Shown in pieces: positions 18,001 to 39,000 of a stretch of 62,777 nt of DNA. Each line of letters starts with the position of its first letter. The stretch's first letter is position 1. The stretch lies in contig CAZAPM010000003.1 of NCBI GenBank assembly GCA_964487475.1, positions 1-62,777 on the forward strand. The letters are read 5' to 3'. Position numbers: made by a program. This DNA comes from an uncultured Planctomycetales bacterium (GTDB lineage: Bacteria > Omnitrophota > Gorgyraeia > Gygaellales > Profunditerraquicolaceae).

Positions 18001-21000
18001 CAGAGGCGCGAGCCGCTGCTTGACCTGCGCCGGGATCTTTTTCTTATCCGTAAGGATCGCGTACTTCAGCGCCTGCGCGCACGAGCAGGTGCGCTCGACA
18101 GGCATGGTACGCACGAGCTCACGGATGATCTTCTTGGAATTCTCCACGTTCTTCAGCAGGCACTGCACCACCATATCCACCGTCACCGGTTTTTCCGGGG
18201 TGTGCCAGCAGTCGTAATCGGTCACCGCGGCCAGGGTCACATAGCACATCTCCGCCTCCCGCGCCAGCTTGGCCTCGGACATGTTGGTCATGCCGATGAT
18301 GTCCATCCCCCATTTCCGGTACAACTCGGATTCCGCGCGGGTGGAGAACGCCGGGCCTTCCATATTAAGGTAAGTGCCCCCTTCATGCACCTTTGCCCCG
18401 ACCCCCGCCGTTTTTACGGCCTGGGCCACGACCCGGGCGGTCGCCACGCACACCGGATCGGAAAAAGTGATATGGGCCACGATCCCCTTCTCGAAGAACG
18501 TCATCTGCCGCGCCTGATTGGTGCGGTCGACGAACTGATAGGGCGTGACGAAATCCAGCGGGGCCATATCTTCGCGCAGGCTTCCACAGGCGGTGACGGA
18601 AACGATGCGCTCCACCCCGAGCTTCTTCATCCCGAAGATGTTCGCCCGGTAATTGATCTCGCTGGGGTTAAGCCTGTGCCCGACGCCGTGCCGGGGCAGG
18701 AACACCACTTCCCTGCCCTCCAGGATCCCGGTGACGAAGTTATCCGAAGGCGCGCCGAAAGGAGTGGAGACCTTCACCGTCTTCAAGCCGGTGATACCTT
18801 CGATATTATACAACCCGCTGCCGCCGATGATCCCGATCTTTCCCATAACGAGCTCCTTTATTCCTTCGCCAGTTGCGCCGCGCGCGCCGCCGCGGCTTTC
18901 ACGGCCTCTGCAAGGCTCCCGCCCTGCGCCAGCACCGCGAGCGCCGCTTCCGTGGTGCCGCCTTTGGAAGTGACCTGACGGCGCAAGTCCTGCGCCGCGA
19001 CGCGGGTCTGCCGCAGATACCGCAGCGTTCCCTCCACCGTCACCCTTACCAGAAGCGCCGCTTCCCGGGCGGGGATCCCCGCCCCCTGCGCGGCCGCCTC
19101 GAAATCCCTGACAAACCTGATATGCTCCTGCGGCGGCCAGGTCTCCGCGGAATGATTCCCCTGCTCCAGGGCGGCACACACATATGCCGGACCGCTGCCG
19201 GAAACCGCGGTGACCGCATTCATCATCGATTCCTCTATCCGCTCGGTCTCGCCAACGAACTCGAAAAGGTCCTCCGCGGCGTCGAGGTCCTCCTCCGAAG
19301 CAAAGGCGCCGGAACAAAGACAGGTCATTCCCGCGCCGATCTGCGCAGGCATGTTCGGCATCACGCGGACCACCCGCACCGTGCCCAGCCGCTTCTCGAT
19401 ATATGCGGTCGTAATGCCCGCGGCGATGGAGACCAGGAGCTTATCCGCGCTCACCGCGGAAGAAGCTTCCTGAAGCACCTGCTCGATATCCTGCGGCTTG
19501 ACCGCCAGCACCACCATCTCCGCGGCCGCGATGACCTGCGCCAGGGAATCGCACCGCGTCACATTCGCCGCGTCCGCGGCCTTGGAAGGATCCTTGTCGA
19601 ACGCGAATATCCGGTAGGATGCGGCAGACTGCGCCGCGATCGCGCGCCCCATGTTCCCGAATCCGATGAACCCCAGCGTCTTCATCTCATCCCTCGAATA
19701 ATGCCCTGCCCAGCCGCACCATGGTCGCCCCCTCTTCCACCGCGACCGGAAAATCGTCCGTCATCCCCATGGAGAGCTCGGTCAGCGGCTGCGGATATAT
19801 CCCTGCGGCATTCACCTCGTCCCGCAGCGTGCGCAGCATCCTGAAATACGGCCGCGCCTCTTCCGCGTCCCGGACGATCGGCGCGACGGTCATCAGTCCC
19901 CGCAGCTTGACATGCGCCAGCCGGGAGATATCTCTCACGGCCTGATGCAGCGACTCCGGGGTCAAGCCCTCCTTTGAAGGCTCCGGAGAGACTTTCACCT
20001 CGATCAGGCACTCCTGCACTTTTCCCAGCGCCGCGGCGTGCTTCTCGATCTCCTGCGCCAGGGCCACGGAATCCAGGGAATGGATGAGCGAGAAGAGCCT
20101 CACCGCATCCCGCGCTTTATTGCGCTGCAAATGGCCGATCAGATGCCACACCACCGCGCGGGACCACGGCTGCTCCGAGGCCAATGCGATCTTCTCCCTG
20201 GCCTCCTGCACGCGGTTCTCCCCGATGTGCACCACGCCGGCATCCAAGGCCTCCCTGACGGATCCGACCGGCCGGGTCTTGGTGACCGCGATCAGGGTCA
20301 CTTCCGACGGGTCCCGGCCTGCAAGGTGCGCCGCCTGCGCGATGGCGCTGCGCACCTTGACCAACGCTGCCGCCCGCATTAAAAATACTCCAGGTACACT
20401 TCCTTGACCTTGTTGACCATCCGGGTGAAAAGATGCGGGTACATCTGCGGGTTGGCCAGCATCCTGGGCTTTTCCGTGCGCAGCAGATGACAGACCACTC
20501 CCAGCGAAGTCAGATAATGCAGGTACTTCTGCCCGGAAAGGATATCGTAACGGTGCGCCAGGGAGGCGACCTGCGGGTTCGCGATCCTCCCTAAGACCAC
20601 CGGCACTCCCCACACCTGTTCAAAAGCCTCGATGAAGCCGCCCATCAGCAACGTGCGCCCCGTCACCACCAGCGAGGAAACCTCGGACGCCAGGACCATG
20701 CTTTCCACGGAGCTCTTGATGAGCCGGCACATCCCCTGGGCCCTATCGTCGAGGATACGCAGCAGCACGGTGCGCTTGATCGGCTTGTACGCCGCCTGCT
20801 GCTTGATCAGGATCTCCTTCTCATCCGGCGCCGCGGATGTTTCACCGACCGCGCCGTGGCTCTTCTTGATCTCCTCGGCCAGATCGGTGGAGATCTGCAG
20901 CTGGTGCGCCACCTCTGCGGTCAAGTCCTGCCCCCCCAGCGCCAGCACCCGCATATCCTTGATCATCCCGTCCTCGAAGACGATGATCTCGGTCACATCC

Positions 21001-36000: not shown

Positions 36001-39000
36001 TACCGTCGACCACGGTCTTGCCCGGAGCCGGCGCCAGGCCCTCAAGCACCTCCCGCGTCATCACCGGCACATGGAATCTAATCGCTTCATCCATAAGCAT
36101 CATAGCTCTATGATCTTCTCCGCGATCTCTTCGAAGGAGGGTTTAGAAGATCTGTAGAACGCTTCCCATTTTTCGCTGGACCAGATTTCGATACGGTTGG
36201 ATACCCCTACCACCATCACGTCGCGCTTGATATCGGCGTACTCCTTGAGGTACTGCGGAAGGAGTATCCTTCCCTGCGCGTCCGGCACGATCTCCATCGC
36301 CCCGGAGAAGAACAAACGGTTGAAAGTCCTTGCCTGCTGCTTGGTGAAGGACATGTTCTTGAACTTCGCTTCCTGGGTGCGCCACTCCTCCTCGCCGAAC
36401 ATGAAGAGGCAGGCGTCGAGGCCCCGGGTGACGAAAAAACGCTCCACGAAATGCGCCTTGGCGGTTTCGCGGAACTTCGCCGGGAGGATCAAACGGCCTT
36501 TGCGGTCTATTCCATGGGAAAATTCACCGTAAAACATGTGAAATGACTTCCCTCCACTTTACTCCACTATGCTCCACTTGTAGTTCAAGTATAACAAAAG
36601 GGACCTTCTTGTCAAGCGGAAAAAATGCGCAAACTCAATGAAAACAATGAGTAGTGTATAGTGGAGGAAAAACCACAAGGGGTTGTGTACCGGGGATAAA
36701 AAATACCCCGGGAGGGAAGATCCCGGGGTTCAGGAAACTGATTTCAGGGAAAAACGGCTAACGCAATGCGATACGGCAGCGGGAAACGTCCTTCGAGATC
36801 TGTGCGCGAAGAGAGTCCCGGCCGGAGAACGTCCGGTCATTGCGCAGCTTGCGGATGAACTGCACTTCGATATCCTCTCCGTAGAGGCGTCCGCGGAACG
36901 CAAGCAGATATACTTCGATCCGGCGCCTCCCGGAGGAACCGGCCAGCGTCGGACGGGTGCCGATGTAACAGGCGCCGCGGTAGCGCCGCGCGCCGCGTCT
37001 TACCCACACCGCATAGATCCCGTCGGGAGGAACCACTTCGTGGTGCGGGTCCAGGTTCGCCGTCGGGAAACCCAGCGTTCGCCCGACGGTATCCCCTTTG
37101 ATCACCGTGCCCAGCACGGAGACCGGCCTTCCCAGCAGGGCGCGGGCCGCGGAAAGCGCGCCACGGGAGATGAGCGCGCGGATACGCGTACTGCTGATGC
37201 GAGTTCCTTGACGGGAAACGATCGGCACGGAACGCACCCTAAATCCCAGGCGCCTGCCCTCCCGCTCCAGGGTCCTGACCGTACCGCGGCCGGACGCGCC
37301 GAAACGGAAATCCTCTCCCACGCAGACTACGGACACCTTGAGCCTGCGCACCAGTACCCGACGGATAAAACGCTCGGGAGAAAGCACGGAGAACGCGCGG
37401 GTAAAACGCAGCACATGCACGTGCGCGATGCCCGCCTCCTTGAGCAGCGCCACGCGATGGGATAAAGAATACACGCTGGCCTCGGACTGGGGATGCGGCC
37501 AGAAGGTCACCGCGACCGCGGTCCCCCGGATCGCTTTCGCCTGCGCCAGCGCGGCACGCAGCACCGCGCGATGCCCCCGGTGCACACCGTCGAAAACCCC
37601 CAGCGCCGCCACTACGGGTGCGTCCGGATTCACCGCAACCCCTCCTCGACCCGGGCCATCACCCGCCGGATCACTTCCGGCATCCTTCCCGGCACGGTAC
37701 AGCCGCTGGCCGCCTTGTGCCCTCCCCCTCCGAATGCGCGCGCCACGGCGCTGACATCGACGTCCCCCTGCGAGCGGAAATTGACCCGCACCGCCGGCGG
37801 AGTTCCCGCCCGGGGCCGCAAGAGCATCACCACCTTCGCCTTCTCGATGGAACGCATCAGCGCCATGACCTGATCGCTCATATCGCTGCCCCGACCTTTA
37901 TCGGGCGGAAGCGCCAGCCAGACACATTTACCCTCGCAGGAGCGGCGGATGCGCGTGAGCATCCCTCCCAGGGAAACCACGTCCTCGAAGGAAAGCCGCT
38001 CGTAGATGCGGCGGTACGTTTCGTACATATCGATGCCGTGCGCCAGAAGTTCCGCGACGATATGATGCGTGCGCGCGGAAGTATTGCGGTAACGGAAGGA
38101 GCCCGTATCGGTCATGATCCCCACATAGATCGCCTCCGCGGCCGGCCGGTCGACGGGTACTCCCAAAGCCTCGAACAATTCATAGACCATCTCGGCGGCG
38201 CACGAAGCGTGCGGATCGACCCAATTGATATCCCCGAACTCCGGGTTGCCGGCGTGGTGGTCGATATTTATGGTGCACCTGGCTTGAGCGGCCAGCGCAG
38301 AGACCTTGCCGTAACGCCCGGCATCCGCGCAATCGACGGAGATGAAACATTCCGCCCGGGGAGGACGGGAAAGCTCCCGAAGCACTTTGGCCGATGAGGC
38401 AAAAGGCAGGAACGCGCACTCCGGCGGGACGGGATCCTCGTTGACCACCGTCACCGTCTTGCCCAGGCGGCGCAGGAGACTGCGCAACGCCAATTCCGAT
38501 CCCACGGCATCCCCTTCCAGGTTGCGGTGAGAAGTGATCAGGAAAGTGTCATACGCGCGCAGCGCCTTAAGCAGCTTCGCCGGGACCGTCTTTTTCCGCA
38601 ACGCCTTTTCTCTTTTCATCCTTCTCCTTGACCGAATCGATGATCTCCTGGATCTTGACGCTGTATTCCGTGGAATGGTCCTCCCGGAAAAGCAGCTCCG
38701 GGGCGAACTTGAGGTTCACCCGCTCGGCGACCAGCTTGCGGATGAATCCCTGCGCCGACTCCAGCGCCTCCTTGGTCTTCTCCAGGTCCTTTTCTTTTCC
38801 CAAGACGCTGTAAAAGATCTTGGCATGCCGGAAATCCTTGGAAAGCTCGACCCGCACGATGGTCACGAACCCCAAACGGGGGTCCTTCATCTCGTCATGC
38901 AGGATACTGCTCACTTCTTTCTGGATCGCATGTACCACCTTATCGTATCTCATCTTGTTCTTCTCCGTATACTGCGCGCGGCCAGCCTGGCCGCCAGCGA

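What a model noticed while it worked through the whole genome (the two positions that open the first line are those of the whole stretch)
19687..37633. Phylum Omnitrophota lacks FtsZ yet keeps FtsA: a third FtsZ-less division system in PVC
The dcw cluster runs mraZ-rsmH-ftsL-ftsI-murEF-mraY-murD-ftsW-murGCB-ddl-ftsQ-ftsA and then straight into yggS with no ftsZ, and no FtsZ/tubulin is found in this genome or in 120 other Omnitrophota. These walled bacteria likely divide without FtsZ (and without class A PBPs) using a freed FtsA, which in several families has deleted subdomain 2B, the FtsZ-binding part. New: reviews place FtsZ in Omnitrophota, and Planctomycetes/Chlamydiae lost FtsA along with FtsZ, so FtsA-without-FtsZ is an undescribed divisome.
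Evidence so far: PF00091 0/121 genomes (117 >=90% complete; 13/14 controls ring, call 14); 0/5 in genomes of 1-4 contigs at E<=1, two single-contig; TIGR00065 none at E<=10 here; ftsA stop overlaps yggS start at C3:20379, no gap; aPBP PF00912 0/61; ftsQ-ftsA kept with no ftsZ after it in 15 loci; 6/15 FtsA lack ~60 aa at subdomain 2B (domain assignment recalled), all keep the C-terminal amphipathic helix; SHS2_FTSA in >=73% of phylum (relatives.tsv); no Min, ZapA, SepF Pfam here.
(Added by a program. Inside this text positions count along the whole contig: contig position 1 is position 1 of the stretch shown here. "Call 12" and the like, gene names such as g00115 and contig names such as C1 are that model's own, and its searches are not shown. 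The text may have been shortened before it was handed on; [...] marks where a part breaks off. The agent that wrote the report below was given it as the finding of a first reader that could run no searches.)

Follow-up and report, generated by a model that had tools for sequence, protein, structure and literature searches.

The report
FtsZ-less divisome keeping a remodelled FtsA
This bacterium and nearly all sampled relatives in the phylum Omnitrophota lack the cell-division protein FtsZ but keep its usual anchor FtsA, which has lost its FtsZ-gripping surface, and they carry a phylum-wide FtsN-like membrane protein that FtsA likely holds to switch on septal wall synthesis without a Z ring.

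Summary
Observation confirmed. The dcw cluster ends ftsQ-ftsA-yggS with a TAATG overlap and no ftsZ. PF00091 passes its cut-off in 2 of 401 Omnitrophota against 115 of 121 Verrucomicrobiota; both hits are a Phycisphaerae-type tubulin-like protein outside the cluster. FtsA is found in 195 of 201 and is under purifying selection (dN/dS 0.06-0.11). It has lost D242/R300/E303 (2/11/30% kept, against 100% in 65 Verrucomicrobiota FtsAs) and, in three lineages, subdomain 2B. The novelty claim is overstated: Pende 2021 (PMC8178401) already lists Omnitrophica as FtsZ-less with FtsA kept, and class A PBP-type domains occur in 8 of 201. This scan has noted the same loss on other DNA (75 findings). New here: a bitopic SPOR protein in 101 of 101 Omnitrophota and 0 of 61 Verrucomicrobiota, whose cytoplasmic tail carries Q-x-[ED]-L-F (58 of 66), a pattern like both the FtsA-binding motif of FtsN and the sliding-clamp motif. 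Most likely FtsA is now a membrane adaptor for this FtsN-like protein and FtsQLB-WI, with MreB-RodZ and FtsK placing the septum as in Chlamydia. All mechanistic steps are inferred.

The parts
36100..36537 (-). mraZ, first gene of the dcw cluster
   Evidence: ORF and sequence; named from family knowledge
35189..36103 (-). rsmH (mraW)
   Evidence: ORF; named from family knowledge
34830..35192 (-). ftsL-like, 120 aa, one membrane helix and coiled coil
   Evidence: position; TIGR02209 E 0.008, under cut-off
33053..34780 (-). ftsI (PBP3), septal transpeptidase
   Evidence: PF00905 and PF03717
27856..33132 (-). murE, murF, mraY, murD
   Evidence: ORFs; named from family knowledge
26762..27859 (-). 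ftsW, septal SEDS polymerase
   Evidence: PF01098 E 1e-114; two or more SEDS genes in 97 of 101 genomes
22492..26765 (-). murG, murC, murB, ddl
   Evidence: ORFs; named from family knowledge
21657..22514 (-). ftsQ, divergent
   Evidence: no Pfam hit; Atlas clusters with PF03799/PF08478 at 0.95-0.97
20379..21647 (-). ftsA, 422 aa: 1C domain, 2B present, R300 kept but D242 and E303 changed, phosphate-2 loop changed, C-terminal amphipathic helix ending Y-F
   Evidence: TIGR01174 192.6 bits over cut-off 175.85; model pLDDT 92.2, Foldseek top hit 7Q6F E 1.7e-36; residues
20377..20381 (-). TAATG overlap of ftsA stop and yggS start: the place where ftsZ normally lies, with no remnant
   Evidence: sequence
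19687..20379 (-). yggS (PLP homeostasis protein)
   Evidence: PF01168; first gene after ftsA in 17 of 73 loci
4906..10172 (-). mreB-mreC-mreD-pbp2-rodA operon, 10 kb downstream of ftsA; candidate organiser of division
   Evidence: ORFs; MreB in 100 of 101 genomes at 67-85% identity

Best explanation
Omnitrophota have lost ftsZ from an otherwise whole dcw cluster and keep an FtsA that has lost its FtsZ-binding surface; this FtsA likely works as a membrane-bound adaptor that holds the Q-x-[ED]-L-F tail of a phylum-wide FtsN-like SPOR protein and so would recruit and switch on FtsQLB-FtsWI, while MreB-RodZ and FtsK likely place the septum as in Chlamydia. Shown: gene loss, gene retention, residue loss, purifying selection, the SPOR protein and its motif. 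Inferred: FtsA-tail binding in the 1A-1C cleft, activation of FtsWI, and the role of MreB and FtsK as organisers.
For: FtsZ absence with a matched control. FtsZ-only partners ZapA and MinC not found in 5 genomes. Of 48 FtsA positions invariant in controls, G214, D242 and R300 are among the four least kept in 53 full-length Omnitrophota FtsAs (0, 2, 11%; mean 60%), yet 100% kept in 65 Verrucomicrobiota FtsAs of 32% mutual identity that lie next to ftsZ. 2B is deleted at three places on the FtsA tree and the deleted form still models as FtsA (pLDDT 92.9; Z 39.5, 323 residues, rmsd 2.0 to 7Q6F). What is kept is the 1C core (D138, P146, G148, L154 at 87-100%) and the membrane helix (Y-F end in 70 of 73; hydrophobic moment 0.53 against 0.62 in E. 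coli). FtsN binds the IA-IC cleft (PMC7613929). The SPOR protein has FtsN's layout (tail, one helix, linker, SPOR), is in 101 of 101 genomes, and its motif is in 58 of 66 sequences from 26 of 30 families against 3.6% in shuffles; E. coli FtsN begins M-A-Q-R-D-Y-V. Helices at FtsA 53-76 and 101-123 are more basic than in controls (net -0.3 and +0.8 against -2.4 to -3.1 and -1.2 to -2.3), which would suit an acidic tail. FtsK 100 of 101, MreB 100 of 101, two SEDS 97 of 101, FtsB, RodZ and amidase 5 of 5.
Against: No experiment on any Omnitrophota division protein was found. The SPOR protein scores far under the FtsN and DedD cut-offs (16.6 of 525 and 24.6 of 150 bits) and is not linked to the dcw cluster. 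Its motif fits the sliding-clamp motif as well as FtsN's (recalled). The family has no match in 61 Verrucomicrobiota, so orthology to FtsN is not traced. MreB and FtsK are also kept by most FtsZ-bearing bacteria, so their retention does not show a role in placing the septum. The charge shift is a group average, and its place in the cleft was not measured on the model. The residue-level role of D242, R300 and E303 is recalled, not read in a paper here. The G000 protein itself keeps R300.
Confidence: 0.5

Rival explanations
1. FtsA itself replaces the Z ring: FtsA-FtsN antiparallel double filaments sense curvature, as MreB does, and steer FtsWI round the division plane.
For: E. coli FtsA-FtsN double filaments prefer negative Gaussian curvature and pair through 1C (PMC7613929); 1C and the membrane helix are the kept parts; 57 of 73 FtsAs keep most of 2B.
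Against: The longitudinal contact is IIA-IIB, and 2B is lost at three places on the tree without relaxed selection (dN/dS 0.06 and 0.08 in two deleted pairs). G214 is kept in 0 of 73 and T215 in under 10%. The same paper assigns long-range placement to FtsZ, not FtsA.
Confidence: 0.15
2. The tail motif is a sliding-clamp (DnaN) binding motif: the membrane SPOR protein ties the replication clamp to the septal wall and so marks or times the division site without FtsZ; FtsA serves FtsQ or FtsW directly.
For: Q at 1, L/F at 4 and F at 5 are fixed in 58 of 66, the spacing of the clamp motif QL[SD]LF (recalled); a MutS-like protein of G000 carries QLSLF (identified by eye).
Against: Position 2 is mostly K, Q or G, not aliphatic, and position 3 mostly E; the layout of the protein is that of FtsN; no clamp-binding SPOR protein is known to me (recall).
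Confidence: 0.17
3. FtsA is kept for a job outside division, for example as a PilM-like anchor of a pilus or secretion machine, and division uses only MreB, RodZ and FtsK.
For: PilM is the next structural neighbour; FtsA is very divergent (26% mean identity within the phylum).
Against: ftsA lies directly after ftsQ in the dcw cluster here and in G358, passes the FtsA cut-off and not PilM's, and matches FtsA structures far better (Z 39.5 against 28.4).
Confidence: 0.1
4. A true FtsZ is present but has diverged beyond profile detection, or is missing from the assemblies.
For: All are metagenome bins; some Verrucomicrobiota FtsZ-family proteins score only 14-27 bits with a profile from other phyla, near the 14.8-bit noise hit (MurC) in G000.
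Against: Bins of like quality give 115 of 121 in Verrucomicrobiota; single-contig G143 and G149 give none; the slot after ftsA is closed; FtsA has lost the binding residues that even divergent-FtsZ Verrucomicrobiota keep; the tubulin-like gene is in 2 of 401, and G358's FtsA lacks 2B.
Confidence: 0.05

Closest known systems
FtsZ-less division of Chlamydiota (MreB, RodZ, FtsK, PBP2/PBP3)
   Same: No FtsZ; MreB, RodZ, FtsK, FtsWI and RodA-PBP2 kept; class A PBP domains mostly absent. FtsK early and MreB implicated in Chlamydia (PMC12283558 passage; PMC7613929).
   Different: Chlamydiota lack FtsA and FtsB; Omnitrophota keep both, an unbroken dcw cluster and a SPOR protein.
Canonical FtsZ-FtsA-FtsN divisome (E. 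coli; Verrucomicrobium spinosum)
   Same: Same dcw order, FtsA fold, FtsQLB, FtsWI, FtsK, amidase, a bitopic SPOR protein.
   Different: No FtsZ; ZapA, MinC and FtsX extracellular domain not found in 5 genomes; FtsA lacks D242/R300/E303 or all of 2B; the tail motif is Q-x-[ED]-L-F, not R/K-D-Y, and has no obligatory basic run.
Planctomycetota division (P. limnophila)
   Same: No FtsZ; FtsK kept.
   Different: Planctomycetota lack FtsA with few exceptions, and dcw genes are dispensable or lost; Omnitrophota keep them.
PilM-PilN (type IV pilus alignment complex; PDB 2YCH)
   Same: Actin-fold protein with a 1C domain that holds the short tail of a bitopic protein in the IA-IC cleft: the model for the adaptor role proposed here.
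   Different: The Omnitrophota protein is an FtsA by score, fold and gene position and has a C-terminal membrane helix.
Pende et al. [quoted passage not shown]
   Same: States that FtsZ is absent in Omnitrophica and lists FtsA without FtsZ in three genomes.
   Different: Five genomes, one of them the misclassified OLB16; no analysis of FtsA's sequence, 2B loss or partners in the section read.

Membership tests
Canonical FtsZ-based divisome | ftsZ present, normally after ftsA | tested here: not met
   control
Canonical FtsZ-based divisome | FtsQ, FtsL, FtsB, FtsW, FtsI, FtsK present | tested here: met
   FtsL by position and a weak score only
Canonical FtsZ-based divisome | FtsEX present | tested here: inconclusive
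   PF18075 0 of 5, but it rings in only 7 of 14 controls
FtsA (TIGR01174) | score over curated cut-off, SHS2/1C domain, FtsA fold | tested here: met
   192.6 and 215.7 bits over 175.85; PF02491; structure matches
FtsA (TIGR01174) | C-terminal amphipathic membrane helix | tested here: met
   predicted helix 405-421; hydrophobic moment 0.55
FtsA (TIGR01174) | FtsZ-binding surface in subdomain 2B (D242, R300, E303; residues recalled) | tested here: not met
   2, 11, 30% kept in 53 full-length proteins; 2B deleted in 16 of 73; G000 keeps R300 only
FtsA (TIGR01174) | intact phosphate-2 loop D-x-G-G-G-T | tested here: not met
   G214 0%, T215 9%; D210 and D14 still 72%
FtsA (TIGR01174) | ATP binding, hydrolysis and filament formation | not testable with these tools
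   needs purified protein
Chlamydia-type FtsZ-less division | no FtsZ; MreB, RodZ and FtsK kept | tested here: met
Chlamydia-type FtsZ-less division | FtsA absent | tested here: not met
   FtsA in 195 of 201
Chlamydia-type FtsZ-less division | polarised division with MreB and FtsK at the septum | not testable with these tools
   needs imaging
FtsN | short cytoplasmic tail, one membrane helix, linker, C-terminal SPOR domain | tested here: met
FtsN | score over NCBIfam FtsN cut-offs | tested here: not met
   16.6 of 525 and 17.1 of 300 bits
FtsN | N-terminal R/K-D-Y motif | tested here: inconclusive
   Q-x-[ED]-L-F lines up with E. coli Q3-R4-D5-Y6-V7 in pattern only
FtsN | binds FtsA and activates FtsQLB-WI through a periplasmic essential segment | not testable with these tools
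   needs binding and complementation assays
FtsZ (TIGR00065), for the tubulin-like genes of G358 and G397 | score over cut-off, place after ftsA, C-terminal linker and tail | tested here: not met
   54.5 and 50.4 of 295.2 bits; other neighbours, chain ends just after the core

The most novel reading that the evidence does not exclude
A whole phylum of walled bacteria divides with a rewired late divisome in which an FtsA stripped of its FtsZ site and a phylum-specific SPOR membrane protein stand in for the Z ring, the protein's Q-x-[ED]-L-F tail docking on FtsA, on the replication clamp, or on both in turn, so that the end of replication itself marks and triggers the septum.
Probability: 0.2. 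Interest if true: 0.88.

Novelty: new variant of a known kind. Interest (0 to 1): 0.64.

Why it matters
FtsZ-less division is known in Chlamydiota and Planctomycetota, both of which also dropped FtsA and, in part, the wall pathway. Omnitrophota keep everything but FtsZ, so they isolate the question of what FtsZ is for and which of FtsA's jobs survive without it. Natural FtsAs without subdomain 2B, under purifying selection, are ready reagents for the open argument over whether FtsA activates FtsWI as a filament or as an FtsN-binding adaptor (PMC8998562 section 4.1). The conserved tail motif gives a concrete two-way binding test (FtsA or DnaN). It also corrects reviews that count the phylum as FtsZ-bearing.

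Tried and rejected
Complex prediction of G000 FtsA (4-398, 68-row alignment) with the SPOR protein's tail (1-36, 26 rows): verdict 'no answer', score 0.00, controls not folded; it bears on nothing. DnaN with the tail was not modelled (one job only). The two-helix membrane protein tail-to-tail with ftsA (lead from e1-1335570) is real but found in only 16 of 201 genomes, five families, not G000: rejected as the general FtsZ substitute. The tubulin-like genes of G358 and G397 were rejected as FtsZ orthologues. Two weak PF00091 hits (G371, G042; 19 and 17 bits) did not score at E<=0.05 with my broader profile. The first conservation control (115 proteins, 64% mutual identity) was too uniform and was replaced by Verrucomicrobiota and 50%-cluster representatives. 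In one search one full-length sequence (L015) was binned as deleted by the alignment; the deletion counts come. Rows dropped: L027 (cut by contig end), L081 (MreB), L078-80 and L082 (no FtsA) from the FtsA set; L439, L440, L443 (no ORF extracted) and L432 (masked) from the SPOR set; 7 of 149 representatives outside 385-450 aa. The search for related loci with G000 FtsA found nothing. Three paper searches for the R300/D242 residues returned nothing, nor did term look-ups in four papers. A motif scan of G000 for the tubulin signature gave only frame noise and unrelated genes. The FtsA tree has weak deep support and does not group all Omnitrophota, so 'three losses' is a gene-tree reading. No Ratteibacteria genome was searched; their FtsZ is known only from Pende's table. 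SepF was not searched.

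
Full report
Observation. The window holds a whole dcw cluster on the minus strand, mraZ (36537) to ftsA (21647-20379), followed by yggS and proC. The ftsA stop overlaps the yggS start by one base. The genome is an Omnitrophota: proteins from genomes of the same class and phylum are 100% identical to records named Ca. Omnitrophota (P0001; P0121). G000 is 94.64% complete in 36 contigs and has no PF00091 match at E<=10. 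E. coli FtsZ gives a best E of 0.96 against its six frames, and five profiles of my own give as best hit the MurC reading frame at 14.8 bits.

Phylum. PF00091 matches 4 of 401 genomes at E<=0.01 and passes its cut-off in 2. The same search passes in 115 of 121 Verrucomicrobiota, whose FtsZs are among the most divergent. A 38-row profile built mostly from those divergent FtsZs finds only short fragments in 201 Omnitrophota. FtsZ_C, ZapA and MinC_C are not found in G000 and four genomes of 1-4 contigs. No FtsZ lies in 73 ftsA loci, 38 of them with at least 1.5 kb downstream; 77 of 80 control ftsA loci from other phyla have it. The two real hits are 399 and 427 aa tubulin-like proteins, 71% identical to each other, about 70% identical to proteins of Sedimentisphaerales and other Phycisphaerae, far under the FtsZ cut-off and outside the dcw cluster; G358's own ftsA lacks 2B and is followed by proC. 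They are most simply transfers (inferred). These are samples of bins, so the result is 'not found in those searched'; kin are not independent.

FtsA. PF02491 is found in 195 of 201 genomes. The G000 protein passes TIGR01174 and models as FtsA. In 73 Omnitrophota FtsAs, 16 lack at least 45 residues at about E. coli 247-298 and 3 lack 13-24; none of 65 Verrucomicrobiota, 72 other-phylum and 142 representative FtsAs does. On a tree without the 2B columns the deletions fall in three places: f9+f11+f22+f10 (support 0.87), f17, and f63 of another class. A deleted protein still models as FtsA. Subdomain 2B binds the FtsZ tail (PMC8998562, section 4.1 and Fig. 7 legend); the residues D242, R300 and E303 are recalled from Pichoff and Lutkenhaus 2007, which I did not see. 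They are 97-99% kept in controls and 100% in Verrucomicrobiota (32% mutual identity), but 2, 11 and 30% in 53 full-length Omnitrophota proteins (26% mutual identity), against a mean of 60% over 48 control-invariant positions. G214 of the phosphate-2 loop is never kept; D14 and D210 are kept in 72%. G000 keeps R300 but has E at 242 and G at 303. The 1C core and the membrane helix are kept, and 70 of 73 end in Y-F. dN/dS is 0.06-0.11 in nine close pairs, two of them 2B-deleted; a tenth was saturated. FtsA is therefore not vestigial, and its loss of the FtsZ site is evidence, independent of profile sensitivity, that no FtsZ is there to bind.

The rest of the machine. FtsK and MreB are each in 100 of 101 genomes, two or more SEDS genes in 97 of 101, and FtsB, RodZ and an amidase in 5 of 5. 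The mre operon lies 10 kb below ftsA in this window and rodZ follows ftsK on C4. PF00912 is in 8 of 201: six ordinary-sized reading frames and two giant ones.

An FtsN-like protein. G000 C8:62833-63408 encodes 191 aa: a 36-residue tail, one membrane helix, a Pro/Ala/Lys linker and a SPOR domain. A 26-row profile finds it in 101 of 101 Omnitrophota and 0 of 61 Verrucomicrobiota; the four of 19 database relatives that carry a taxon are Omnitrophota, as are the three Atlas clusters shown. The tail carries Q-x-x-[LF]-F in 58 of 66 sequences from 26 of 30 families, with E or D at position 3 in 56; six more keep the acidic-L/F-F end and two have a longer variant; shuffles give 3.6%. E. coli FtsN starts M-A-Q-R-D-Y-V, D5 matters for FtsA binding, and the tail binds FtsA's IA-IC cleft (PMC7613929). 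The same five letters also fit the sliding-clamp motif (recalled). The protein does not reach FtsN cut-offs. The scan's notes hold nothing on it.

Mechanism. The kept parts of FtsA are those that bind membrane and FtsN; the lost parts bind FtsZ, make the IIA-IIB filament contact and hold the ATP phosphates. The simplest reading is a PilM-like adaptor that gathers the FtsN-like protein and FtsQLB-WI at the membrane, with placement left to MreB-RodZ and FtsK as in Chlamydia (0.5). Rivals: FtsA filaments as the scaffold (0.15), the motif as a clamp tether (0.17), FtsA used outside division (0.1), a hidden FtsZ (0.05). None of these binding or localisation steps is shown.

Literature. Pende 2021 (PMC8178401; section 9 and part 3 of supplementary file 4 read) says FtsZ is absent in Planctomycetes, Omnitrophica and Chlamydiae and FtsA absent only in the first and last; its table lists FtsA without FtsZ in 3 Omnitrophica, neither in 1, both in OLB16, and both in 2 of 2 Ratteibacteria. 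Rivas-Marin 2016 (PMC5147048, passages) found FtsZ only in OLB16 and left the others open. Seymour 2023 (PMC10066038, passages) calls OLB16 misclassified and has no 'fts' term. The 2025 iScience paper (PMC12283558; passages, section 13, supplement search; figure not seen) calls dcw genes highly conserved in Ca. Omnitrophota. PMC7613929 (passages, sections 6 and 9), PMC8998562 (section 11, passages), PMC5727935, PMC8897712 and PMC11323482 (passages) were used for FtsA biology. Five searches pairing the phylum name with FtsZ, dcw, cell division or FtsA listed no study of Omnitrophota division, FtsA remodelling or this SPOR protein; most listed papers were seen as listings only, subscription papers are missing from the library, and bioRxiv supplements are closed.

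Verdict. Real and well controlled; the headline loss is in print in passing and has been noted many times by this scan (75 findings). The FtsA remodelling with a matched control and the phylum-wide FtsN-like protein with its tail motif make the question directly testable. New variant of a known kind; interest 0.64.

Noticed in passing
G000 C8:62833-63408 (+); L418:1501-2073: Phylum-wide FtsN-like SPOR protein with a conserved Q-x-[ED]-L-F tail motif; outside the window, so not listed under parts.
   Followed up: yes
L001:1012-2295 (-), L002:1318-2517 (+); P0001-P0120: A tubulin/FtsZ-family protein about 70% conserved across Sedimentisphaerales and other Phycisphaerae, a group said to lack FtsZ, with copies in a few Omnitrophota; N-terminal extension of variable length, no C-terminal tail. 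768 relatives found. Function unknown; worth its own study.
   Followed up: partly
L322-L325, L359, L360 (Verrucomicrobiota bins): A second, 366-375 aa FtsZ-family protein with a GGGTG loop, not next to ftsA, scoring only 14-27 bits with a canonical FtsZ profile.
   Followed up: no
window 20382-20393 (ftsA C-terminus) and 73 orthologues: FtsA ends in [ED]-Y-F in 70 of 73 Omnitrophota despite 26% mean identity; control FtsAs vary there. It may be a docking motif beyond membrane binding.
   Followed up: partly
G155:C2:382834-383385 and G203:C3:95009-95308: Transglycosylase-like domains inside open reading frames of about 42,900 and 44,900 codons; giant Omnitrophota proteins are reported (recalled).
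   Followed up: no
L057:3221-3577 (+); L362-L377: Two-helix membrane protein tail-to-tail with ftsA in families f25, f28, f33, f35, f36 only (16 of 201).
   Followed up: yes
window 11594-12457 (-): 287 aa protein with an N-terminal membrane helix, long coiled coil and a small C-terminal beta domain, two genes above mreB; no family over cut-off.
   Followed up: no
family f60 genomes, e.g. G132:C47:8821-11388, G030:C12:66906-69659: A second, 325-416 aa SPOR gene lies about 2 kb from the FtsN-like gene in most f60 genomes.
   Followed up: no
G095:C3:247636-248073, G127:C1:392013-392447, G125:C51:7911-8348, G075:C28, G119:C3: In several f1 genomes the FtsN-like match comes as two pieces in open frames of 148-163 aa; probably a short linker, not checked.
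   Followed up: no
Verrucomicrobiota FtsAs (L291-L361): The phosphate-1 aspartate (E. coli E14 position) is D in only 8% of 65, although the FtsZ-binding residues are invariant.
   Followed up: no
G000 C8:63467-63682 (+): A small basic protein follows the FtsN-like gene in many families; no family assigned.
   Followed up: no
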